UHGV virus genome: UHGV-0169625
Direction: 5' to 3' (one strand)
Source: a virus
Length of the DNA stretch: 44,509 nucleotides
Made by a program: the position numbers and the translations under genes
Part shown: piece after piece, positions 4,495 through 42,407 of the stretch
Layout: each line of letters begins with the position of its first letter
How positions within the stretch are numbered: position 1 is the stretch's first letter
Notes under the pieces: model-generated
What the model was told of the DNA's origin: nothing
What the model saw: the letters and a program-made list of their open reading frames with translations, nothing else
Database searches by the model: none

Positions 4495-4523
4495 ACTATA
4501 ATAGTGAACTATTCACATGTCAA
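4495..4523 (-). promoter_or_regulatory. sigma70-like promoter (leftward) with embedded palindromic operator
   Basis: minus strand TTGACA (4523-4518), 17-nt spacer, TATAGT (4500-4495); plus strand 4498-4515 reads ATAATAG-tgaa-CTATTCA. Confidence 0.55.
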
Positions 4524-4541: not shown

Positions 4542-4559
4542 TTAATATGGTACTATTCA
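4542..4559 (+). promoter_or_regulatory. operator-like site overlapping extended -10 (TGgTACTAT) upstream of the HTH regulator gene
   Basis: TTAATAT-ggta-CTATTCA (degenerate copy of the recurring palindrome); TACTAT at 4551-4556 preceded by TG; weak -35; about 30 nt upstream of ATG 4588. Confidence 0.35.
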
Positions 4560-4587: not shown

Positions 4588-4803
4588 ATGCAACCATCTG
4601 AACTAGGCATCCGTGTAGAAAAACGCCGTAAAGAACTCGGCATCTCCCAGCGCCGTCTGGCGGTGCTGACCGGGGTTTCCCAGGGCGCAATTAACCAGCT
4701 GGCACTTGGGGTAACCCAGGACGTCCGCCCGGCAACGCTGTTTAAACTGGCGGAAGTGCTGGAGGTAGACGCCAAGTGGCTGGCGCTAGGTGAAGGGGCT
4801 TAA
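4588..4803 (+). CDS. XRE-family (Cro/CI-type) helix-turn-helix transcriptional regulator
   Basis: 71 aa; ISQRRLAVLTGVSQGAINQLALG is a classic HTH_3 signature; AGGAG SD; the only plus-strand gene inside the minus-strand replication block, divergent from operator-bearing promoters. Confidence 0.8.
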   Translation: MQPSELGIRVEKRRKELGISQRRLAVLTGVSQGAINQLALGVTQDVRPATLFKLAEVLEVDAKWLALGEGA

Positions 4804-4820: not shown

Positions 4821-7061
4821 CTATTCCAAATCCTCTTCTGTCACTACCAGCATTTCATTCGGTTCGTATATTGTCTTCGGTCTTAGTCTATCCCCTATTC
4901 TTTCAGGTATACGATACGTTCTCGGTACTACTTCGCCATTAGCATCACAGCCTAGCATTAGTTCACCATCTTTCAGCATTTTATCAAGATGGGTGTTAGT
5001 CACAGAAAAGTCACCGGAACGGGCCACTATCTGCTGCTGAGTAAAACCGCGACCTGTGTCATCTGACTGTTGCAGGTCTTCCAGTGCCGAAAGTATCGAC
5101 TCCTTCCTTACTTCATCCCTGCCGCGTTTAACTTCTTCCTTTACTTTTTGTTTACCTTCGTTAGTTAACCCTTCTTCCCGCTCCTTCTCCTCGTCAGTTT
5201 TGAACGGCTCGAAGCCCCACGGCATCAGAACAAGCGCCTTGTGTGGTTCCGGCAGGTCGAGGTTTACGATTGTGCCGTATTCCTCTGTGCTGCCCAGGAA
5301 CTCAACAGCACGGTACTCTTTCGGCGGTGGTGCTTCACGGAACTGTACAGACTCCAACACCATGCCAACCGTTTTCTGTTGAGGGCCGTGCTTAAATTTT
5401 GAGTGGTATACGTTTATCTGACGGTCGGTTGCGCGTTCAATTGTCAGTTCCACGTCGACCCCAGCATACAACGCCCCGCTGCCACGGGCTTTCTTTCCAC
5501 CTTTCGGTGTATGGTGGACAACACCCACCGCGGCTTTGGTTGCGTCGCGTACTTCTTTCAGGATGGCGATAACCTTACCCATGCCGATTGCCGTTGATGA
5601 ACTGTTCTCGTCGAACTTATCAATCGTCAGGGCCAGTGTCTGGTTGAGAGTATCGAACGCGACCATGCCGATGGGTTCGCCACCCGCAGTTTCTCGCATT
5701 AGCTTAATCAGGCTTTTCAGTTTGCCAACTTCGCCCATATCGATGACATGTACATAATATTTACCTTCCTCGCCGTATTTAGCCGCGAGTGCATCAATAC
5801 GGGTGCGTGTGGCAGCACCGCCCTCGCCGTCAATATAGAAATGGTGGCAACGCTGTGTATCAGCGCCGGCAAACCGGTACCCGGCGGCGCTCAGGTACAT
5901 CATCCCCAGCGTATAGAAGGATTTGTACGTGCCGGATTCCCCGACGATGTCCCAGATGCAATCCGAGGGCATGTACCCTTCAACGACGAAATCAGCCTTT
6001 ACCGGTTCAGGTAACTCGTCCTCCTCTGAGCCTTCGTCATCTTCCAGGTCGTCCAGGCTGCATGAAACGGACTCTCGCGCACCCCAACCGATAGCCTCTG
6101 CTACTTCACTGAATGGCAGCCCGGTCGCATCGCACGCATACTTCCACACCTCTTTCGGTGACATGCCTTCGGTTGCCGTAATGTCGGTGTCGTGAATCAT
6201 GGTTACGTTTGGCGCGGCGTAACCCTCTCGCGGAAAGCACAGCAGGAAATCATCCGGGCGTGGCGTCGGGTCGCTGTAGTTTTCTGCGTGTTCTGGTGTG
6301 GCAGGCATTTTAAGGCCGCGGGGTGTCATAATACCGCCATACTCGAATGCCAGTGCTTCAAACGCATCGGTAAACGCAGTGCGCAGTTCTTCCGGTATCT
6401 GGTAATCCGATGCGCTGCTAACGTCAACGGCGGGGATGCCTTCCAGCAGTTCTTCCGGGTCAATCAGGTCGTTGCGGCGCGACCAAATAACGGTAGAGCC
6501 AACCGGCGGCAGGTACATCGGCTGCGACAGAGTGAACCCGCTGCGGTCAGCGCCCATGCCTTTGAAGAAGTGCTCGAGCAATCCGTGGCGAACGCGGATG
6601 ATGTCGCCACCTTCGACCGGGCGACCAAGCGGCATAACGACGCGAAAGCGCGGTGACCCATCGGTATGTGATGCCGTGGTATAGAGGCACATGGCCAGGC
6701 GGCTGCGCTTAACCAGGTGCACAGCTTCCTGATACTCTTCCGGCGTTGCACTGTCGAAGTCCAGGTAGGCCAGTGATGATTTGCTTACAGAGGCGTCGCA
6801 GCGATAGAAGAAGCCTTTACGCGCTTGCTTAAAGTCCCCGGTTTCCTGGTCTTTTACGGTGCTGTGTGTTGAGTCGCACGCGGCTGTGATATAGCCGGGC
6901 GCGGTCTTAGGGTTAACCCCATCACGAACAGCATCGAGCGGCCGGATTAACTCTTTCAGGTCGTCCAGTGTTGCCGTGTGTGTGGTTCTGACGTTTATAT
7001 CCTTTTTCTCTGCCCGCGCGTTGCGACGAGACCACGAGTAGGATAAAATTACATCGGACAT
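4821..7061 (-). CDS. putative primase/replicative ATPase (prim-pol-like N-terminal domain plus P-loop-like ATPase domain)
   Basis: 746 aa; LAYLDFD (DxD) and TASHTDG resemble archaeo-eukaryotic primase motifs; central GESGTYKS P-loop-like and VHHTPKGG segments; ends in VTEEDLE; assignment by motif only. Confidence 0.5.
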   Translation of the reverse strand: MSDVILSYSWSRRNARAEKKDINVRTTHTATLDDLKELIRPLDAVRDGVNPKTAPGYITAACDSTHSTVKDQETGDFKQARKGFFYRCDASVSKSSLAYLDFDSATPEEYQEAVHLVKRSRLAMCLYTTASHTDGSPRFRVVMPLGRPVEGGDIIRVRHGLLEHFFKGMGADRSGFTLSQPMYLPPVGSTVIWSRRNDLIDPEELLEGIPAVDVSSASDYQIPEELRTAFTDAFEALAFEYGGIMTPRGLKMPATPEHAENYSDPTPRPDDFLLCFPREGYAAPNVTMIHDTDITATEGMSPKEVWKYACDATGLPFSEVAEAIGWGARESVSCSLDDLEDDEGSEEDELPEPVKADFVVEGYMPSDCIWDIVGESGTYKSFYTLGMMYLSAAGYRFAGADTQRCHHFYIDGEGGAATRTRIDALAAKYGEEGKYYVHVIDMGEVGKLKSLIKLMRETAGGEPIGMVAFDTLNQTLALTIDKFDENSSSTAIGMGKVIAILKEVRDATKAAVGVVHHTPKGGKKARGSGALYAGVDVELTIERATDRQINVYHSKFKHGPQQKTVGMVLESVQFREAPPPKEYRAVEFLGSTEEYGTIVNLDLPEPHKALVLMPWGFEPFKTDEEKEREEGLTNEGKQKVKEEVKRGRDEVRKESILSALEDLQQSDDTGRGFTQQQIVARSGDFSVTNTHLDKMLKDGELMLGCDANGEVVPRTYRIPERIGDRLRPKTIYEPNEMLVVTEEDLE

Positions 7062-7119
7062 GTTGTATTTCCTTCAGCAAGTAATTTGGCCTCGGCGTTC
7101 ACCGCGTCGGGGCTTTCTT

Positions 7120-7353
7120 TTATTCCAGGTCTTCTAAAGTAGCGGTCATTCCGCGAACTTCAGCAACGGCGCTATATTTCCCGCCAACATTTTTCACGAC
7201 ACCAGATTTAACCAGCACCTTCAACGACCCTTCAATAATGGCTGAACTATAGTACTTAAAATAACTACGGCGCAAGTCAATAACGCTACACGACCCTTTT
7301 TTACGTGTTAACGAAACGACTGCTGTAAATACGCGTGACTGAAACTCGGTCAT
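7120..7353 (-). CDS. hypothetical protein (77 aa), C-terminus LEDLE
   Basis: track ORF, start overlaps upstream gene stop; no domain recognised. Confidence 0.45.
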   Translation of the reverse strand: MTEFQSRVFTAVVSLTRKKGSCSVIDLRRSYFKYYSSAIIEGSLKVLVKSGVVKNVGGKYSAVAEVRGMTATLEDLE

Positions 7354-7520
7354 TTCACGTTCTCCTTAATCCATGCTTCCACTTTCTCCGGGTCAAACGT
7401 ACCTGGCTGACGACGGCCCATAATGCGGATGCAGCAATCCGGGAACTTCCCGCTCTTTAACCAGTTATTCAGCGTGCGACGGGTAACCCCGATACGCTCA
7501 GCTACCTCATTCTGTGTCAT
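7350..7520 (-). CDS. AlpA/Xis-like HTH DNA-binding protein
   Basis: start moved to ATG at 7520 (MTQNEVAERIGVTRRTLNNWLKSGKFP...EAWI) because the predicted -10 overlaps the track start at 7553; GAGGG SD. Confidence 0.6.
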   Translation of the reverse strand: MTQNEVAERIGVTRRTLNNWLKSGKFPDCCIRIMGRRQPGTFDPEKVEAWIKENVK

Positions 7521-7552
7521 TCTCAAACCCTCATTATTAGTTAACGAAACCA

Positions 7553-7581
7553 AGTATACATTGCGAATAATGGGAAATCAA
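7553..7581 (-). promoter_or_regulatory. sigma70-like promoter (leftward) for the minus-strand early operon
   Basis: minus strand TTGATT (7581-7576), 17-nt spacer, TATACT (7558-7553). Confidence 0.45.
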
Positions 7582-7960
7582 ACATAATCGCACCTATTGA
7601 CATTATGAAAATCTTCGTTTAAGGTGCTTCTATATCTTAGTTACTTTGATTCCTGTTCACCTTGTAAAACCGCTTAAAACGCAGCTGCGCGCAGCGCAAG
7701 CAAAGTGTTAAGCGAAAGTTTACTGAACACGAGAATTATCGTAACTTTCCTTCCTAAGTATCTCCGGTTGCCCTGGGCAAGCTCTATTCACATCGGCAGC
7801 ATATCTCTTAAGTATCTGATTTTCTTAATGTGCCGTAGATTCGCAACCGTAAAAATGTAACGATTATTGGGCAGGCTTAGGGCCTGCCCTTTAGTTACCA
7901 AGTAATAAGAATAAAGGCACAACCTTCCCAGAAGAATCACAACGGCAACGTAACTATCTC

Positions 7961-7989
7961 TTGCACGCCCCAACATAATAGGATACTAT
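7961..7989 (+). promoter_or_regulatory. sigma70-like promoter (rightward) with embedded palindromic operator
   Basis: TTGCAC (7961-7966), 17-nt spacer, TACTAT (7984-7989); 7975-7992 reads ATAATAG-gata-CTATTCA; about 35 nt upstream of ATG 8024. Confidence 0.5.
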
Positions 7990-8023
7990 TCACTTATCGA
8001 AACGAGACAGAGGAGTGAGGGTT

Positions 8024-8215
8024 ATGTTTAAGAAGGGTCAGTTGGTTAAATGCGCCGACGGTAAACACGGTGTGATTGAATTAAAATCCGCTTTATTTCC
8101 GGGAGAGTACCTAGTTACTGTGCAAAAGGTGAGAGGAGTAAATTCGGCGGCATACGTAGCGGAAGAGAATTTAAAACTCATCGGCAACAATTTTAAATTC
8201 AAAGAGGTGAAGTGA
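8024..8215 (+). CDS. hypothetical early protein (63 aa)
   Basis: ATG at 8024 with AGGAGTGAGGG SD; first gene of plus-strand early operon. Confidence 0.5.
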   Translation: MFKKGQLVKCADGKHGVIELKSALFPGEYLVTVQKVRGVNSAAYVAEENLKLIGNNFKFKEVK

Positions 8216-8424
8216 TGGAAGAATTAATTTGCGTGAAAAGTAAATTAACGGAGTTTAAGCCGGGGCGTTTATACAGCAGTTACCCAACACCTGATTACGA
8301 TTATGTTATTGATGAAACAGGAGGCGAATGGGTAGTTGACCAGTTCGGAGATGATGAGTTCGGTATATTTGATGGTGGACTGAGAGCCTCATTCACAACG
8401 GCATCGGATAAAGAGGCGAAGTGA
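8212..8424 (+). CDS. hypothetical early protein (70 aa)
   Basis: track ORF, start overlaps upstream stop (translational coupling). Confidence 0.45.
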   Translation: MMEELICVKSKLTEFKPGRLYSSYPTPDYDYVIDETGGEWVVDQFGDDEFGIFDGGLRASFTTASDKEAK

Positions 8425-8627
8425 TGCAAGAATTATTTGAAGAACTGAAACATCATGAACTAGAAGAAGTGCATTTCATAATTGGCCATTACAAAGTCAC
8501 TTTATTAGACGGTACAACCATTTCTTCAGGGGCAAGTGACGATTTGTTGAAATTTTTACGTTTACTACGAACGGCATCGAATCATGATGCGAGTGTCGAC
8601 GACTCTGAGGGAGGTTGCCGTGAATAA
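8421..8627 (+). CDS. hypothetical early protein (68 aa)
   Basis: track ORF, start overlaps upstream stop. Confidence 0.45.
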   Translation: MMQELFEELKHHELEEVHFIIGHYKVTLLDGTTISSGASDDLLKFLRLLRTASNHDASVDDSEGGCRE

Positions 8628-8681
8628 GTTTGTTTTAATCATCAGCGCCGTTTATGTGGTGCACGCGTTGCGGGGGTTAGT

Positions 8682-8837
8682 ATGAGAATCCGTATAACTG
8701 ACCGCAGGCTTATAGATTTCGGTATCTCGGTAGGTGATGTTTTTCTGGCGTTCAGCAGCAACCATTATGGTTTTATGATTGAGTACAAAGGGTCGTTATT
8801 GTTCGTGTATCGGGATGAGTGCGAGGTTCTGGTATGA
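8682..8837 (+). CDS. hypothetical small protein (51 aa)
   Basis: ATG ORF below track cutoff; stop overlaps next ATG (ATGA). Confidence 0.3.
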   Translation: MRIRITDRRLIDFGISVGDVFLAFSSNHYGFMIEYKGSLLFVYRDECEVLV

Positions 8838-8977
8838 GAGAAGCATTTGAACGGTGGGCCGTCATCGAGGGGCTGCCTGTTAATAAGGGTTCGAAGAAAG
8901 AGTACCTGAACGTTAAGACGCGTCTCGCGTGGCGGGCGTGGAAAGCTGGTGTGCAAGCTGTGATGAATACGAGGTGA
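8834..8977 (+). CDS. hypothetical small protein (47 aa)
   Basis: ATG ORF below track cutoff, coupled to flanking ORFs. Confidence 0.3.
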   Translation: MREAFERWAVIEGLPVNKGSKKEYLNVKTRLAWRAWKAGVQAVMNTR

Positions 8978-8980
8978 GAT

Positions 8981-9181
8981 ATGAGTAAGTGGATTAAGTG
9001 CAGTGAGCAGATGCCCGCTCCTTTCTCTCATGTACTTGTGACCGATGGGGGAGAGGTTGAGATTAAATGGTTCGATGATGATTCGGATGAGTGGGATAGT
9101 TGGGATGAATTCAACTCTGTCATAGACAACGAGGATATAACGCACTGGAGGAAATTGCCTAAACCGCCGAAACTGGTGTAA
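8981..9181 (+). CDS. DUF551-like small protein
   Basis: 66 aa; MSKWIKCSEQMP...ITHWRKLPKPP resembles the DUF551 pattern (W-I-x-C ... THW-x-x-LP-x-PP) from recollection. Confidence 0.5.
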   Translation: MSKWIKCSEQMPAPFSHVLVTDGGEVEIKWFDDDSDEWDSWDEFNSVIDNEDITHWRKLPKPPKLV

Positions 9182-9494: not shown

Positions 9495-9523
9495 TTGCAC
9501 GCTAGGATAGAATAGGCTACTAT
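9495..9523 (+). promoter_or_regulatory. sigma70-like promoter (rightward) with embedded palindromic operator
   Basis: TTGCAC (9495-9500), 17-nt spacer, TACTAT (9518-9523); 9509-9526 reads AGAATAG-gcta-CTATTCA. Confidence 0.5.
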
Positions 9524-26528: not shown

Positions 26529-26534
26529 AACTAA

Positions 26535-26556
26535 GGCCCCTTTCGGGGCCTTTTTC
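26535..26556. terminator. bidirectional intrinsic terminator
   Basis: AAGGCCCCTTTCGGGGCCTTTTT with A-run upstream and T-run downstream; lies between convergent genes. Confidence 0.75.
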
Positions 26557-26560
26557 TCAC

Positions 26561-26737
26561 TCACTCACTTTTGAATGGCATTTCGTAGAAGTTAGTTAAC
26601 TGCCCCCGGTCACTCCGTTCTGTCATTTCTTTCGAAGCCTCTTCCTTACTACCCACGGCGTAAATATCTACCCACTCGTCCCATTCTTTGTCGTATACGC
26701 GGATTACGTATATTGTTTTCATTACATTCTTACTCAT
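26561..26737 (-). CDS. hypothetical small protein (58 aa), antisense island
   Basis: ATG ORF on minus strand; start overlaps stop of 26730..26936 gene. Confidence 0.35.
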   Translation of the reverse strand: MSKNVMKTIYVIRVYDKEWDEWVDIYAVGSKEEASKEMTERSDRGQLTNFYEMPFKSE

Positions 26738-26936
26738 CAATATTACTCCTGTACTCCCGTAACTTCTCCAGACTTTCTATTGCTTCTGCTAAGTCGGTTC
26801 CTGTGTCTTTGTGTCCGCGAAGGCCCATACACAACAGCTTCTTCAATGCGTGCTGTAGCGCCGGGTCGCGTATATCGAAGGCGCGTAGCACATCATAAAC
26901 GTCTACTGTCATAGTGCTGCCGTGAGTGTTTGTCAT
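26730..26936 (-). CDS. hypothetical protein (68 aa), antisense island
   Basis: start trimmed to first ATG (26936); track shows GTG alternative at 26960. Confidence 0.4.
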   Translation of the reverse strand: MTNTHGSTMTVDVYDVLRAFDIRDPALQHALKKLLCMGLRGHKDTGTDLAEAIESLEKLREYRSNIDE

Positions 26937-26965
26937 TGTGCGGTTGTATTTATTTGTCACTGTTA

Positions 26966-27015
26966 ACTCTCTTAAATCTGGCTATGCCTGACTCTCTTAA
27001 ATCTGGCTATGCCTG
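26966..27015. repeat. perfect 25-bp tandem duplication (2 copies)
   Basis: ACTCTCTTAAATCTGGCTATGCCTG at 26966-26990 and again at 26991-27015; spans the stop codon of gene 26972..27175. Confidence 0.9.
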
Positions 27016-27175
27016 ACTCGTTAATGCTGCCTATTTCAAAGAAGCTGCGATATTTAGGCGAATACATTCTTACGTCGCCGTTCTCTAGGGTGACCCCTTC
27101 ATATACAGCGCCTACTTCGAATCCATTTTTCTCCGCGTACGGACTCACATCGGTGCATTCATACATATCTTTCAT
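26972..27175 (-). CDS. hypothetical protein (67 aa), antisense island
   Basis: track ORF; last 14 codons are encoded inside the tandem duplication. Confidence 0.4.
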   Translation of the reverse strand: MKDMYECTDVSPYAEKNGFEVGAVYEGVTLENGDVRMYSPKYRSFFEIGSINESGIARFKRVRHSQI

Positions 27176-28302
27176 CCCAGCATCTCCGGTGAAATAGTTA
27201 AACGTGCGACCTCGCCATATTCGGCACTATAGGTAATTACATTTGCGCTACGGCCTGACATCCATCCACCGCGCGAGGCGTAGGCGTCTTTAGCCGCCAG
27301 GGTGCGGTGTTGCTCAACAATCATGTTACGGCTTTCCACAATCTTCTGATGGTGGAGGTGGCCTACGTGGGCGTAGCTGTAAACGCTTTCGCCAAATGCT
27401 TTGCGGAACTTGGCAATCATAACCGGTTCGATAGCGTCGAATCGTGCCTTATGCCCGTGGTGAAAGAACAGCGTCGTTTTGCCGTGTTGCACCATCTTGT
27501 AAACATCTGGCGACGTATCGACGAACACACGAGGCTCATTGTCGTACAGCGTACTAAACATCTCAGCTAACCAAATCATTCCGCTTTCGTCGTGGTTTCC
27601 TTGCACGATAAGCAAGCGAACATTTTTATGCTTAACCAGCGCCATACCGACAACACGGCGGACCATACGAATCATGTAGCGGACAAGTTTCTGATAGCGA
27701 GTGTCCGCATCAAGGGCGTGACCGCTTGCAGGCGTAACGGCAACCAGACTGTCGAAGTGCGCGAAGTCGCCCAGCAGGTTAATAACTCCAGTTCCTGCAT
27801 CCGGCGCTTTCTGGAACGCCGCATCGAACCAGCGAGAAAACAGGTCTTCCGCAATCTTCATATCCCAGTCGTCGCCACTCTCGTCGGCCCAGGCCAGCAT
27901 ACCAAGATGGAAATCAGATACAGTGTAAAGATTGAGTAGTTTATCGTCACGTTTGGTGCGAACGGCTTTAACTGGTACAACGGGAGTAATCTCCGACTTC
28001 ATGCCTTCGATTACGGCTTTCATCAACTCGACCTGACGTTCAGCGTCAGTGTCTGTCTTAACCCATTGCAACTTAGTGTTGCCGAACTCGTCCACAAGCG
28101 ACGACGTTCCTTTAATCTTGTAGCCGTCCGGGACAAGATGGCTAACGTCACGACCGTGACCTACGCCTTTCTTCGCCAGCTTCGCTTTACGGATACGAAT
28201 AACGCGGTCTGAGATGCCGTATTTACGGGCGATGTCTACATTCTTCATCCCGGCGTTCAATTCTTCCTGTAACTGTTCGTCGGTTATTTTCTTCTGGGCC
28301 AT
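27172..28302 (-). CDS. HTH domain fused to calcineurin-like metallophosphoesterase
   Basis: 376 aa; N-terminal NVDIARKYGISDRVIRIRK (HTH); metallophosphatase motif series SDFHLG (D-x-H), GDFAHFD, GNHDE, HHGH, GHLHH. Confidence 0.6.
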   Translation of the reverse strand: MAQKKITDEQLQEELNAGMKNVDIARKYGISDRVIRIRKAKLAKKGVGHGRDVSHLVPDGYKIKGTSSLVDEFGNTKLQWVKTDTDAERQVELMKAVIEGMKSEITPVVPVKAVRTKRDDKLLNLYTVSDFHLGMLAWADESGDDWDMKIAEDLFSRWFDAAFQKAPDAGTGVINLLGDFAHFDSLVAVTPASGHALDADTRYQKLVRYMIRMVRRVVGMALVKHKNVRLLIVQGNHDESGMIWLAEMFSTLYDNEPRVFVDTSPDVYKMVQHGKTTLFFHHGHKARFDAIEPVMIAKFRKAFGESVYSYAHVGHLHHQKIVESRNMIVEQHRTLAAKDAYASRGGWMSGRSANVITYSAEYGEVARLTISPEMLG

Positions 28303-28367
28303 GCTTACTTCCTCGTGTTTAGGATTTGTCCTATTTAACCACAGTGGATTCCTTTAAATAAAGGCAA

Positions 28368-28694
28368 CTATTTACTTTCTGCGCCTATTGCCCATCCAGT
28401 CATTACCATTTGCAGACGGGTGGCTGTCAGTAGGCTGTAAAACGCGTCTCCGTTTTTCTCTACCGAACGTATTACCGTGTATGTTACGGCTTGCGGAGGC
28501 AGGCCCGATTTACCAACCTCTACGGCGGACTCGCACTCGCGAACTGTAGAGTCCTTAAATGCCTTTACAAGAGTAGGGTTGGCTTTCTCAAGCACACCAG
28601 AAGTCATAAGAACAGATTCACTAAATACCTGTTCGCACGGGGACCCAAAAGTAGCAAAAGACATAAACCCCAGAGCTAGTACTAATTTACGCAT
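28368..28694 (-). CDS. exported protein with signal peptide, first gene of antisense island
   Basis: 108 aa; MRKLVLALGFMSFATFG signal peptide; GAGGAA SD; about 22 nt downstream of leftward promoter. Confidence 0.5.
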   Translation of the reverse strand: MRKLVLALGFMSFATFGSPCEQVFSESVLMTSGVLEKANPTLVKAFKDSTVRECESAVEVGKSGLPPQAVTYTVIRSVEKNGDAFYSLLTATRLQMVMTGWAIGAESK

Positions 28695-28712
28695 AATTAT
28701 TTCCTCGGTAAG

Positions 28713-28751
28713 TTACAAGTGAATAGTACCCTATTATATTGGGGTGCGCAA
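28713..28751. promoter_or_regulatory. overlapping divergent promoters sharing one palindromic operator
   Basis: leftward: TTGCGC (28751-28746), 17 nt, TACTAT (28728-28723); rightward: TTACAA (28713-28718), 16 nt, TATATT (28735-28740); 28720-28737 is the inverted copy of ATAATAG-N4-CTATTCA. Confidence 0.45.
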
Positions 28752-28858
28752 GTAGTGTGCTAGAATAAGTTTGCGCCTAGTGTCGCACACGAAAAGCGGG
28801 TGGTTCCCGTCTGGCGCGTCAACCTTAACCTGTAACCTCTTAACCAAAGGATTAAAGA

Positions 28859-41273: not shown

Positions 41274-42219
41274 TTACCGCCCCCATGAATGCCTTTATAA
41301 ATTCAGCGGCTACTTGCGGGACGATGGCATTGCCATAACCGCGCAATCGTCCCACTCTGGCGGGTATCCCATTAGCCAGCGGGAATGCGCCGGGTTCAAC
41401 TGGCCTGAATTTTCCATCCCGGCATCCGAGCCAGTCAGTATCTGACCAGAAGCCGTGATGCGGATTGGTTGTGTTATTTTCAGACCCTGCTCCGTCGAGT
41501 AGTCCAGCCTGTCGAATGTTCTGTCTTTTCCGTCCTTGCGAATAACTGTCTCTCCGCTCCCTCTGTAATCGTTCGCTGTTGGGGTCGGCCATGCCAAAAG
41601 GTATTGTGCGTGCGTCGCCAGATTGCAATTCGCATTCGGTCTGTTGAAGCGTTTTTCCGCGTAGGCTTGTGGGTCTTTCGCTCTGCTGTTGTTGTCGTCC
41701 GCAACCGCTGGCGTCGGCCAGGTTGTGCGCGCCGAAGAACAGTCTGTCGCGTTTGTGCGGTGCGCCGACGCTACAAGCTGGGAGTACGGCAAACCCGACG
41801 GCGTAGTCTTCTCCTTCCAGGTGAGTTTGTAAATCGCACATCCACGATTTTGCAATTGCTGGCGCAACCTGCTCCCCAAAGAGGACTGGAGGTCGGCACT
41901 CGCTGATAAGGTCGAGGAACACAGGTGCGAGGTGTCTCTGGTCGAACTGTCCGAGTTGCTTTCCCGCCGCGCTAAACGGTTGGCAAGGCGGGCTTCCCGT
42001 CCAGAGAGGCGCATCTTCCGGAACTCCCGCAAGTCTGAGCGCGAGAGGCCAGCCGCCGATACCAGCGAAAAAATGACACTGGGTGAACCCGTCAAGGTCT
42101 TCTGGCTTAACTTCGGTAATGCTTCTTTCATCTACAACTCCAAAAGGTATGTGACCCTGTTTTATCAACTCACGCAGCCACGCGGCTGCGCCTTTATCCC
42201 ATTCATTGTAATAGTTCAT
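41266..42219 (-). CDS. DNA (cytosine-5) methyltransferase, orphan
   Basis: 317 aa; FAGIGG (motif I), PPCQPFSAAGK (motif IV PCQ), FGEQV (ENV-like), GNAIVPQVA (motif X); no adjacent restriction endonuclease. Confidence 0.8.
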   Translation of the reverse strand: MNYYNEWDKGAAAWLRELIKQGHIPFGVVDERSITEVKPEDLDGFTQCHFFAGIGGWPLALRLAGVPEDAPLWTGSPPCQPFSAAGKQLGQFDQRHLAPVFLDLISECRPPVLFGEQVAPAIAKSWMCDLQTHLEGEDYAVGFAVLPACSVGAPHKRDRLFFGAHNLADASGCGRQQQQSERPTSLRGKTLQQTECELQSGDARTIPFGMADPNSERLQRERRDSYSQGRKRQNIRQAGLLDGAGSENNTTNPHHGFWSDTDWLGCRDGKFRPVEPGAFPLANGIPARVGRLRGYGNAIVPQVAAEFIKAFMGAVNE

Positions 42220-42407
42220 TTCGCCACCAGAACTAACTCTTTACGACCGAACGCCGTAACGTTACCGGTTACATCTTCGATAACCAGTTTACCGTTTGAC
42301 TCGACGTACACCGTATCAACGGCAACAGGGTGGCGGGTCTTAACGCTGAAAATCATGTCGCCTGGTACGATGTCACGTGCTGGCTTGCGGTCATATTCGT
42401 GTTTCAT
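42216..42407 (-). CDS. hypothetical protein (63 aa)
   Basis: track ORF, AAGGAA SD, first gene downstream of promoter 42441-42469. Confidence 0.45.
   Translation of the reverse strand: MKHEYDRKPARDIVPGDMIFSVKTRHPVAVDTVYVESNGKLVIEDVTGNVTAFGRKELVLVAK

What the first reader, a model, noticed from the sequence alone, without database searches (positions are those of the whole stretch)
26561..28751. Five-gene antisense island inserted in the tail module with its own operator-bearing promoter
Between the major tail protein gene (ends 26528) and the tail chaperone gene (starts 28859), five genes run on the opposite strand: an exported protein, an HTH-metallophosphoesterase fusion and three small proteins. 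The block is bracketed by a bidirectional terminator (26535-26556) and a divergent promoter pair (28713-28751) carrying the same palindromic operator as the early promoters. Late structural operons are normally uninterrupted, so this has the signature of a moron or accessory cassette, possibly superinfection exclusion, defence or counter-defence, expressed early rather than with the tail genes.
Basis: partly seen in the sequence, partly recalled or inferred. Interest (0 to 1): 0.75.

Follow-up and report, generated by a model that had tools for sequence, protein, structure and literature searches.

The report
Conserved antisense accessory operon in tail genes
A block of five backward-facing genes between two tail genes of this E. 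coli phage is real, but every relative examined has it, built around a conserved nuclease-like enzyme with swappable neighbours, one of which probably keeps related phages from injecting DNA.

Summary
The window is a Kagunavirus-like (Guernseyvirinae) phage. Five minus-strand genes, all under purifying selection, lie between the tail tube gene and the tail assembly chaperone (TAC) gene. They are bounded by a strong hairpin terminator and a 164-nt control region.

The palindrome AATAG-N4-CTATT in that region occurs 7 times in the window against 0.02 expected. All copies lie in gaps between genes or at a gene end. Two copies precede a Cro/DicA-like HTH gene, the likely binder.

The "inserted island" reading is only partly right. 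In 47 of 47 related loci the HTH-metallophosphoesterase sits antisense at this junction. The same enzyme family is in about 2,000 phage records, elsewhere among DNA-metabolism or lysis genes. Its model most resembles PolD-DP1, Mre11 and SbcD nucleases.

Only the flanking genes are cargo. The promoter-proximal slot holds either this 108-aa exported two-cysteine protein or a T4 Imm-family membrane protein, each tied to one TAC/tape-measure type. The distal slot swaps a 76-aa protein for a split polynucleotide kinase-phosphatase.

Best reading: an operator-controlled non-structural operon with a nuclease anchor and an injection-blocking exclusion gene. Functions and timing are inferred, not shown. 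Known kind, moderate interest.

The parts
26533..26557 (.). Shared hairpin terminator closing both the tail tube transcript (+) and the antisense operon (-): AAGGCCCC-UUUC-GGGGCCUU followed by UUUUU.
   Evidence: dG -15.4 (+) and -20.4 (-) kcal/mol, z about -4.8 on both strands. The stem is conserved in K1H and Bas73 while the loop varies.
26561..26740 (-). o59, a 59-aa cargo gene with no family match.
   Evidence: Homologues in 7 related loci, pN/pS 0.22. No Pfam, PHROG, PADLOC or NCBIfam hit.
26730..26960 (-). o76, a 76-aa protein that is the commonest occupant of the distal slot. It never co-occurs with the HAD phosphatase + P-loop kinase pair.
   Evidence: phrog_2452 E 9e-37, matching only profile positions 150-220 of 235. 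Present in 27 of 47 loci. pN/pS 0.11.
26966..27015 (.). Perfect 25-nt tandem duplication at the o67/o76 junction. It shifts the frame at the 3' end of o67.
   Evidence: Absent from the closest relative with the same gene order, TPH05A.
26972..27175 (-). o67, a 67-aa cargo gene with no family match.
   Evidence: Homologues in 6 loci, pN/pS 0.28.
27172..28302 (-). Anchor gene: an HTH (residues 8-44) and a beta-hairpin/helix linker, fused to a calcineurin-like metallophosphoesterase (residues 119-376). Predicted nuclease.
28368..28694 (-). exp108, the promoter-proximal slot gene: a 108-aa exported helical protein with two invariant cysteines. Candidate superinfection-exclusion factor.
   Evidence: phrog_14165. 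Only 22 clusters in 5.8 billion proteins; those carrying a name are from Salmonella or Salmonella phages (Jersey, VT223). pLDDT 84, helical, residues 1-14 disordered. Alternates with an Imm_superinfect gene at the same slot.
28722..28735 (.). Palindromic operator AATAGTACCCTATT, shared by both arms of the divergent promoter pair.
   Evidence: 7 exact copies in the window against 0.02 expected. Exact in 45 of 48 related intergenic regions.
28723..28761 (-). Leftward (island) promoter candidates: TTGCGC (28751-28746), 17 nt, TACTAT (28728-28723); or AGCACA (28761-28756), 17 nt, TATAAT (28738-28733).
   Evidence: 35-nt homology with the element 30 nt upstream of the first rightward small gene (7960-7994), and similarity to the site at 9511. 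Jersey-like loci have TTGCAT, 17 nt, TATTAT here (read).
28712..28766 (+). Rightward (chaperone/tape-measure) promoter candidates: GTTACA (28712-17), 17 nt, TATATT (28735-40), with the operator in the spacer; or TTGGGG (28739-44), 16 nt, TGcTAGAAT (28758-66).
   Evidence: The first has the same register as the three strong leftward promoters at 2202, 4500 and 42446 (TTGACA/TTGACG, 4 nt, operator, TATAGT; 10-11 of 12 matches).
28773..28817 (+). Conserved structured RNA in the chaperone gene leader: a closing stem and two hairpins. It starts at the predicted start site of the TGcTAGAAT promoter.
   Evidence: RNAalifold on 10 diverse loci gives 14 pairs, 4 of them with compensatory double changes. 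No Rfam family.
4588..4803 (+). 71-aa Cro/DicA-type HTH protein, the candidate operator-binding regulator. It is antisense within the leftward replication genes, with operators at 4500-4513 and 4544-4557 just upstream.
   Evidence: NCBIfam DicA subfamily E 5e-10, below its cut-off. The orthologue is annotated in K1H as ORF37.

Best explanation
The block is the fixed antisense, non-structural operon of Guernseyvirinae phages, not a recent insertion.

One leftward transcription unit starts at an operator-controlled sigma-70-type promoter. That promoter overlaps, back to back, the promoter of the downstream tail genes. The unit ends at the hairpin it shares with the tail tube gene.

The operator AATAG-N4-CTATT is part of a genome-wide regulon. 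It is probably bound by the 71-aa Cro/DicA-like protein encoded at 4588-4803.

The operon has one conserved anchor, an HTH-fused Mre11/SbcD/PolD-DP1-like metallophosphoesterase with an intact active site. This is most likely a metal-dependent nuclease acting on DNA or on nucleic-acid ends during replication, recombination or host takeover.

The anchor is flanked by two cargo slots:
- The promoter-proximal slot always holds a small envelope-targeted protein. Here it is a Sec-exported, two-cysteine helical 108-aa protein; in most relatives it is a T4 Imm-family membrane protein. It most likely blocks DNA entry by superinfecting phages of the same tape-measure type.
- The distal slot holds exchangeable small genes. 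Here these are the 76-, 67- and 59-aa proteins; in relatives, a split polynucleotide kinase-phosphatase, an HNH endonuclease or a Rha-type regulator.

Shown: gene content, conservation, operator enrichment, slot alternation, fold. Inferred: direction and timing of transcription, the operator-binding protein, nuclease activity, the exclusion function.
For: Conservation and position:
- The metallophosphoesterase is antisense between tube and chaperone genes in 47 of 47 loci.
- The same family lies outside structural modules in Dhillonvirus, Kyungwonvirus and Tunavirus. It is in 2,005 phage records.

Enzyme:
- All five metallophosphoesterase motifs are invariant or nearly so.
- Confident model. 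Its best structural neighbours are DNA nucleases.

Regulation:
- Operator: 7 copies against 0.02 expected in the window, 7 in K1H, 0 in Gluttony.
- 45 of 48 island/chaperone intergenic regions keep it exactly.
- Two copies sit upstream of the Cro/DicA-like gene.

Slots:
- The promoter-proximal slot holds exp108 (15 loci), Imm_superinfect (28 loci) or another signal-peptide two-cysteine protein (3 loci); one locus showed none of these.
- One of those other proteins is a distant exp108 homologue (hhalign E 6e-5).
- The slot gene and the chaperone type go together without exception (28/28 and 15/15). The distal cassette reassorts freely.
- The tape-measure N-terminal 440 residues are alignable only in exp108 loci.

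Expression:
- In Kagunavirus K1B4 the Imm-type slot gene (045) is transcribed. It is classed with DNA polymerase and methylase genes, not with the structural genes the paper names.
Against: - There is no transcript map for this phage. The promoter hexamers are only 8-9 of 12 matches, and the generic promoter scan is not enriched.
- The operator also lies in the rightward tail promoter and, in K1H, before head genes. It therefore does not mark 'early' by itself.
- The K1B4 study labels the slot gene 'late'.
- The link between slot gene and chaperone type could be simple physical linkage plus shared ancestry.
- The Pfam metallophosphoesterase scores are below the gathering cut-offs.
- No Rad50/SbcC-like partner gene is present, and the enzyme's substrate is unknown.
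Confidence: 0.6

Rival explanations
1. The operon is mainly a nucleic-acid end-healing or repair module used for counter-defence. The metallophosphoesterase would act as a 2',3'-cyclic phosphodiesterase or end-processing enzyme alongside a 3'-phosphatase and a 5'-kinase. Together they would mend RNA or DNA cut by host defence nucleases, as T4 Pnkp with RNA ligase repairs tRNA and as bacterial Pnkp uses a calcineurin-type phosphatase domain.
For: In 17 of 47 loci the gene is directly followed by a HAD_PNKP phosphatase (72 bits) and a P-loop kinase-like protein. A 53%-identical homologue in an unrelated 42.6-kb phage contig (L065) is also followed by a HAD-type ORF. The K1H record notes that all three genes have relatives in T1 and Era103.
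Against: This window lacks both the phosphatase and the kinase, so the enzyme must work without them. No ligase is present in the block. In Tunavirus SH6, Kyungwonvirus and Dhillonvirus the enzyme has no such neighbours. The best structural neighbours are DNA nucleases rather than lambda-phosphatase-type enzymes.
Confidence: 0.2
2. The metallophosphoesterase is a host-takeover and counter-defence nuclease. It would damage host DNA early and so silence host defence genes, as reported for the metallophosphoesterase Gp48 of mycobacteriophage A10ZJ24. The envelope protein would be unrelated cargo.
For: The nuclease-like fold and intact active site. An operator-type promoter shared with small early-type genes. 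A precedent in PMC12287305.
Against: Gp48 is a shorter enzyme without the HTH; its first catalytic motif is at residue 10. Homology between the two was not tested. The HTH fusion suggests targeted rather than bulk DNA binding. There are no data on host DNA degradation in these phages.
Confidence: 0.15
3. The exported 108-aa protein is not an exclusion factor. It would serve lysis timing, envelope remodelling or protection against lysis from without. Its association with the chaperone/tape-measure type would be mere genetic linkage.
For: No similarity to any characterised exclusion protein. About 150 nt of conserved intergenic DNA is a short target for recombination. Loci from one sample are not independent.
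Against: A bona fide Imm_superinfect family gene occupies exactly the same slot in most relatives. The slot gene, chaperone and tape-measure N-terminus appear to move between the Kaguna-like and Jersey-like groups as one unit: L007 and L033 share a near-identical chaperone. The holin, endolysin and spanin genes lie elsewhere in the K1H genome.
Confidence: 0.15
4. The block is a recently acquired moron specific to this phage.
For: It has its own promoter and terminator. The cargo genes have lower G+C (0.42-0.48) than the genome (0.511).
Against: The block is present in all 47 related loci, spanning Kaguna-like and Jersey-like phages. The anchor gene has the genome's G+C. The boundaries are conserved.
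Confidence: 0.03
5. The five proteins are virion or tail-assembly components, which would explain their place in the tail module.
For: Their position between the tube and chaperone genes.
Against: They lie on the opposite strand with their own control signals. The anchor is an enzyme that sits among DNA-metabolism or lysis genes in other phage families. The other four genes are present or absent among close relatives with near-identical tails.
Confidence: 0.02

Closest known systems
HK97 gp15 moron (superinfection exclusion gene inside the tail operon)
   Same: A small envelope protein gene with its own signals lies in the tail operon next to the chaperone and tape-measure genes. Its exclusion specificity depends on the incoming phage's tail region (PMC3594210). 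Here the slot gene likewise tracks the chaperone and tape-measure type.
   Different: gp15 is a single gene of a temperate phage, co-oriented with the tail genes and expressed from the prophage. Here a virulent phage carries a multi-gene antisense operon with a conserved enzyme anchor. The exclusion function is untested.
cor of T1, phi80, N15 and Dhillonvirus
   Same: An exclusion gene lying antisense within the tail gene cluster of a small siphovirus. It is seen in Gluttony gp59 at 42054-42272.
   Different: Cor acts on the FhuA receptor (PMC3594210). Kagunaviruses depend on O-antigen or capsule glycans, so a post-adsorption block is more likely. There is no sequence similarity.
T4 Imm / Pfam PF14373 Imm_superinfect
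   Same: Relatives carry a member of this family at exactly this slot. T4 Imm blocks DNA injection by superinfecting phages (own knowledge).
   Different: The protein in this window is not a member. It is a soluble exported helical protein, not a two-helix membrane protein.
Mre11/SbcD nucleases and the archaeal PolD DP1 proofreading exonuclease
Mycobacteriophage A10ZJ24 Gp48 metallophosphoesterase
   Same: A phage metallophosphoesterase expressed early, with phosphodiesterase and DNA-damaging activity and a counter-defence role (PMC12287305).
   Different: A different architecture with no HTH, and a different host clade. Relatedness beyond the superfamily was not tested.
T4 Pnkp and bacterial Pnkp/Hen1 RNA repair
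   Same: K1H-type relatives pair the enzyme with a HAD_PNKP phosphatase and a P-loop kinase.
   Different: That pair is absent from this window. No ligase is present in the block.
Lambda-type Cro/CI operators at overlapping divergent promoters
   Same: A short palindromic operator lies in the spacer or -10 of back-to-back sigma-70 promoters. A small Cro-like HTH gene has two operators upstream of it.
   Different: The phage is apparently virulent: no integrase is annotated in the related K1H genome. The operator is spread over at least 7 promoters rather than one immunity region. Binding is untested.

Membership tests
Moron (Juhala/Hendrix sense) | Extra DNA present in some related genomes and absent from others at the same junction | tested here: not met
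   The block as a whole is present in 47 of 47 related loci. The feature is met only for the individual cargo genes exp108, o59, o67 and o76.
Moron (Juhala/Hendrix sense) | Own promoter and terminator | tested here: inconclusive
   The terminator hairpin is strong on both strands. The promoter is inferred from consensus matches and from homology to other operator sites. There is no transcript data for this phage.
Moron (Juhala/Hendrix sense) | G+C content different from the surrounding genes | tested here: inconclusive
   Island 0.485 against genome 0.511 (14th percentile). The anchor gene is 0.513, the same as the genome. The cargo genes are 0.42-0.48.
Moron (Juhala/Hendrix sense) | Expressed from a repressed prophage | not testable with these tools
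   The BASEL paper treats Kagunaviruses as lytic isolates. No integrase is annotated in K1H.
Calcineurin-like metallophosphoesterase superfamily | Five conserved metal-binding and catalytic motifs (DxH, GDxxD/H, GNH[D/E], H, GHxH) | tested here: met
   D130, H132, G178, D179, N236, H237, H282, G314 and H317 are invariant in 82 sequences of 33-50% identity to the query. D238, H284 and H315 are nearly invariant.
Calcineurin-like metallophosphoesterase superfamily | Pfam Metallophos or Metallophos_2 at the gathering score | tested here: not met
   20.9 bits against 27, and 18.9 against 21.5. The fold match is nevertheless clear.
Mre11/SbcD nuclease | Nuclease fold closest to Mre11/SbcD | tested here: inconclusive
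Mre11/SbcD nuclease | Adjacent Rad50/SbcC-type ATPase partner | tested here: not met
   None in the block. None is annotated in the whole K1H genome.
Imm_superinfect (PF14373) | Profile match at the gathering score | tested here: not met
   exp108 has no Pfam hit. The alternative occupant of the same slot in relatives scores 47.9 bits against 27.9.
Polynucleotide kinase-phosphatase end-healing module | HAD_PNKP phosphatase plus P-loop kinase genes | tested here: not met
   Absent from the window. Present in 17 of 47 relatives.
Rho-independent terminator | G+C-rich hairpin followed by a U-run | tested here: met
   8-bp stem with 6 G-C pairs. UUUUUCUC follows on the + strand; UAGUUUUAU on the - strand is weaker.
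Repressor operator regulon | Palindromic site over-represented and placed at promoters | tested here: met
   7 exact sites against 0.02 expected, six intergenic and one at an ORF's 3' end. Three of them sit in the spacer of promoters matching 10-11 of 12 consensus positions.
Repressor operator regulon | Binding by a cognate regulator | not testable with these tools
   The candidate is the Cro/DicA-like protein at 4588-4803. The enzyme's own HTH is unlikely, because Gluttony shares the enzyme at 75% identity and has no such site.

The most novel reading that the evidence does not exclude
The promoter-proximal slot gene and the adjacent chaperone/tape-measure allele form a matched exclusion-injection pair that is inherited and exchanged as one module. 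Each Guernseyvirinae phage would carry, back to back with its own DNA-delivery genes and under one shared operator, the factor that blocks that same delivery route. That factor is either a periplasmic two-cysteine protein or an Imm-type membrane protein. This would be a post-adsorption exclusion strategy suited to virulent phages whose glycan receptors cannot be masked. The single operator between two overlapping promoters would switch the cell from exclusion and nuclease expression to tail production.
Probability: 0.3. Interest if true: 0.6.

Novelty: new member of a known kind. Interest (0 to 1): 0.4.

Why it matters
Guernseyvirinae (Kagunavirus, Jerseyvirus) are common therapeutic and biocontrol candidates. 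Their genomes are small enough for synthetic rebuilding.

Knowing that the antisense block is a fixed operon with two cargo slots tells engineers which part is probably dispensable or swappable, and which part, the nuclease, is conserved.

If the slot gene is a tape-measure-specific exclusion factor, it would give a simple, testable system for how siphovirus DNA crosses the periplasm. It would also affect the design of phage cocktails that mix relatives.

The operator regulon gives a handle on the otherwise unstudied transcription programme of this subfamily.

Tried and rejected
- Sequence searches of the enzyme against PDB, as a single sequence and as a profile, found nothing useful.
- PADLOC and NCBIfam found nothing for the five island proteins.
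- Rfam found nothing in the window.
- I considered that the enzyme's own HTH binds the operator. I rejected this because Dhillonvirus Gluttony shares the enzyme at 75% identity and has no copy of the palindrome.
- I considered that o76 is a remnant of the K1H ATP-binding protein, since it matches only the C-terminal part of larger PHROG families. BLASTP shows no similarity between the two.
- I first suspected that the shared 35-nt motif drives only the rightward chaperone gene. The sites at 7977 and 9511, where the gene orientation is unambiguous, show that the opposite orientation also fits a promoter. The region is therefore best read as an overlapping divergent pair.
- The Sf11 virion proteomics paper concerns an unrelated siphophage and was not used.
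- The library holds no functional data on Kagunavirus CM001.
- The K1B4 RNA-seq paper gives temporal classes for only a few genes and uses long, probably unsynchronised time points. I treat it as weak evidence.
Full report
**What the window is.** The region 26000-29400 matches 452 phage records. The best matches are Escherichia Kagunavirus-type phages at about 90-92% identity: TPH05A, hz69, fFiEco02, Bas70-76 and K1H. Many Salmonella phages match at lower identity. The window is therefore a Guernseyvirinae siphovirus.

**Checking the observation.**
- The flanking genes are a Phage_tube_2 tail tube protein and two tail assembly chaperone ORFs.
- Against homologues in related loci all five ORFs show purifying selection, with pooled pN/pS of 0.11-0.28. 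They are genes, not chance ORFs.
- The hairpin at 26533-26552 folds at -15.4 kcal/mol on the + strand and -20.4 on the - strand, z about -4.8 on both. A U-run follows on the + strand; the run on the - strand is weaker. Its stem is conserved in K1H and Bas73 while the loop differs.

**The operator.**
- The control region contains AATAGTACCCTATT. The palindrome AATAG-N4-CTATT occurs 7 times exactly in the window: at 2202, 4500, 7977, 9188, 9511, 28722 and 42446. One-mismatch copies lie at 4544 and 19824. Shuffling predicts 0.02 exact copies.
- Six exact copies lie between genes. The seventh (42446) lies at the 3' end of an ORF.
- K1H also has 7 copies, one of them at its island/chaperone junction.
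- Three sites (2202, 4500, 42446) sit in the spacer of near-consensus leftward promoters of the form TTGACA/TTGACG, 4 nt, operator, TATAGT, matching 10-11 of 12 positions.
- The site at 28722 shares a 35-nt block with the site 30 nt upstream of the first rightward small gene at 7960-7994. It also resembles the site at 9511, where both neighbouring genes point rightward.
- Read leftward, the island site gives TTGCGC, 17 nt, TACTAT, or a perfect TATAAT with a weak -35. Read rightward it gives GTTACA, 17 nt, TATATT, in the same register as the strong promoters.
The hexamers are only consensus-level evidence.
- Two operator copies lie directly upstream of a 71-aa Cro/DicA-like HTH gene at 4588-4803. 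This gene is annotated in K1H as ORF37. It is the obvious candidate binder.
- The enzyme's own HTH is an unlikely binder. Dhillonvirus Gluttony shares the enzyme at 75% identity but has no copy of the palindrome.

**Synteny.**
- A scan of viral contigs returned 73 loci with a relative of the 376-aa protein. Together with four GenBank loci fetched by hand, 47 loci carry homologues of the tail terminator, tube and chaperone genes. In all 47 the enzyme lies antisense between tube and chaperone.
- The block spans 1.8-2.9 kb.
- The DNA boundaries (the 3' end of the enzyme gene, and the terminator) are conserved while the content between them is replaced.
- The island/chaperone intergenic region is highly conserved and keeps the exact operator in 45 of 48 sequences, whichever gene sits next to it.
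- The block is therefore an old, fixed feature of the subfamily and not an insertion in this phage.

**The anchor enzyme.**
- It matches phrog_704, "DNA repair exonuclease", at E 2.5e-165.
- Its relatives number 4,582 clusters at 50% identity and occur in 2,005 phage records, including T1 at 46% identity.
- In Dhillonvirus it lies between the lysis cassette and the small terminase gene. In Kyungwonvirus it lies between a Dam methylase and the endolysin. In Tunavirus SH6 it follows helicase, VRR-NUC and methylase genes and precedes the holin. In more distant contigs it is near SSB, primase-like and HNH genes, as read from ORF starts. It is a DNA-metabolism gene, not a tail gene.
- All metallophosphoesterase motifs are invariant or nearly so.
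- The AlphaFold model (pLDDT 93.4) shows an HTH, a beta-hairpin/helix linker and the phosphoesterase core.
- The Pfam scores are below threshold, and sequence searches of PDB find nothing.
- I infer a metal-dependent nuclease or end-processing enzyme. The substrate is unknown.
- A mycobacteriophage metallophosphoesterase with early expression, DNA-damaging activity and a counter-defence role is a functional precedent of different architecture.

**The promoter-proximal slot.**
- In 15 loci it holds the 108-aa protein. In 28 loci it holds a 59-72-aa two-helix membrane protein that matches Pfam Imm_superinfect above threshold. In 3 loci it holds other signal-peptide two-cysteine proteins. One locus showed none of these.
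- One of those other proteins is a distant homologue of exp108.
- The 108-aa family has only 22 clusters in 5.8 billion proteins. Those carrying a name are from Salmonella or Salmonella phages (Jersey, VT223), and K1H has a 95% orthologue.
- Its model is helical with a disordered N-terminal signal region. It has no informative structural neighbour.
- The slot gene tracks the chaperone type without exception: Imm with types T1 and T2 (28 of 28), exp108 with types T3 and T4 (15 of 15). The distal cassette reassorts freely with either.
- The tape-measure protein aligns over its full length only in exp108 loci. In Imm loci only the C-terminal ~330 residues align.
- A Kaguna-like locus and a Jersey-like locus share near-identical Imm-type chaperones (L007 and L033). 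The unit seems to move as a block.
- This pattern resembles HK97 gp15, an exclusion gene in the tail operon whose specificity depends on the incoming tail.
- Kagunaviruses depend on O-antigen or capsule glycans, and the BASEL authors argue that receptor masking is futile for such phages. A block at the DNA-entry step is therefore the plausible form of exclusion. This remains an inference; physical linkage and shared ancestry could explain the association.

**The distal slot.**
- The 76-aa protein occurs in 27 loci. It never co-occurs with a HAD_PNKP phosphatase plus P-loop kinase pair, which occurs in 17 loci.
- Occasional extras are the 59- and 67-aa proteins of this window, an HNH endonuclease, a Rha/KilAC regulator and a small membrane protein.
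- The recurrent kinase-phosphatase neighbours support a nucleic-acid end-processing role as a rival reading. This window lacks them.

**Expression.** There are no data for this phage. In Kagunavirus K1B4 the block is genes 041-045. The Imm-type gene 045 is reported in the same temporal class as the methylase and DNA polymerase genes. The capsid and tail genes the paper names fall in another class. That agrees with regulation apart from the neighbouring tail genes. The sampling was coarse, and the authors call the class "late".

**Composition.** The island's G+C is 0.485 against 0.511 for the window. The enzyme gene is at 0.513 and the cargo genes at 0.42-0.48. This fits a core anchor with accessory cargo.

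**Verdict.** It is wrong on being an insertion, and the early timing is unproven. The arrangement belongs to a known kind, accessory or exclusion genes embedded in siphovirus tail clusters. It has some features I found described in none of the papers read here: a fixed antisense operon, a nuclease anchor, two cargo slots, and one operator shared by overlapping promoters. Interest is moderate.

Noticed in passing
window 28773-28817 (+), with AACC repeats at about 28822-28845: A conserved structured RNA lies in the leader of the tail assembly chaperone gene: a 5-bp closing stem enclosing two hairpins. Four of its 14 pairs show compensatory double changes across 10 diverse loci. It begins at the predicted start site of the TGcTAGAAT promoter and is followed by three (U)AACC repeats that could pair with the UGGUU loop. 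No Rfam family matches. It may be a 5' stabiliser or a translational control element.
   Followed up: partly
window 26966-27015: A perfect 25-nt tandem duplication (ACTCTCTTAAATCTGGCTATGCCTG, twice) sits at the o67/o76 junction. It is absent from the closest relative with the same gene order. It shifts the reading frame at the 3' end of o67. It is either a recent event or an assembly artefact.
   Followed up: partly
window 4588-4803 (+), operators at 4500-4513 and 4544-4557: A 71-aa Cro/DicA-like HTH gene lies antisense between two leftward replication genes. Two operator copies sit upstream of it, overlapping a near-consensus divergent promoter. It is the likely master regulator of the operator regulon.
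   Followed up: partly
window 2202, 4500, 7977, 9188, 9511, 28722, 42446 (and 19824, one mismatch): The regulon of AATAG-N4-CTATT sites covers leftward replication-gene promoters, rightward small-gene promoters and the island/tail junction. K1H has an additional exact copy before its spanin and scaffold genes (K1H 4489). The window has only a one-mismatch copy at the corresponding place.
   Followed up: yes
window about 7560-8020: About 460 nt of A+T-rich DNA (the 7001-9000 windows are about 44% G+C) without a convincing ORF lies between the leftward and rightward gene blocks. It carries a consensus TTGACA-type site near 7598 and the operator at 7977. It may hold further control elements or an origin.
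   Followed up: no
window 26730-26960 (-): The 76-aa protein matches only the C-terminal part (positions 150-220 of 235) of phrog_2452, and of an 'ATPase' PHROG. It may be a stand-alone version of a domain that is fused to a larger protein elsewhere. It shows no similarity to the K1H ATP-binding protein.
   Followed up: partly
L065:7213-7833 (IMG/VR contig 2751185941): In an unrelated 42.6-kb phage contig a 53%-identical homologue of the enzyme is also directly followed by a HAD-type (DLDGTLADG) ORF. This suggests a recurring link between the enzyme and the phosphatase beyond Kagunavirus.
   Followed up: no
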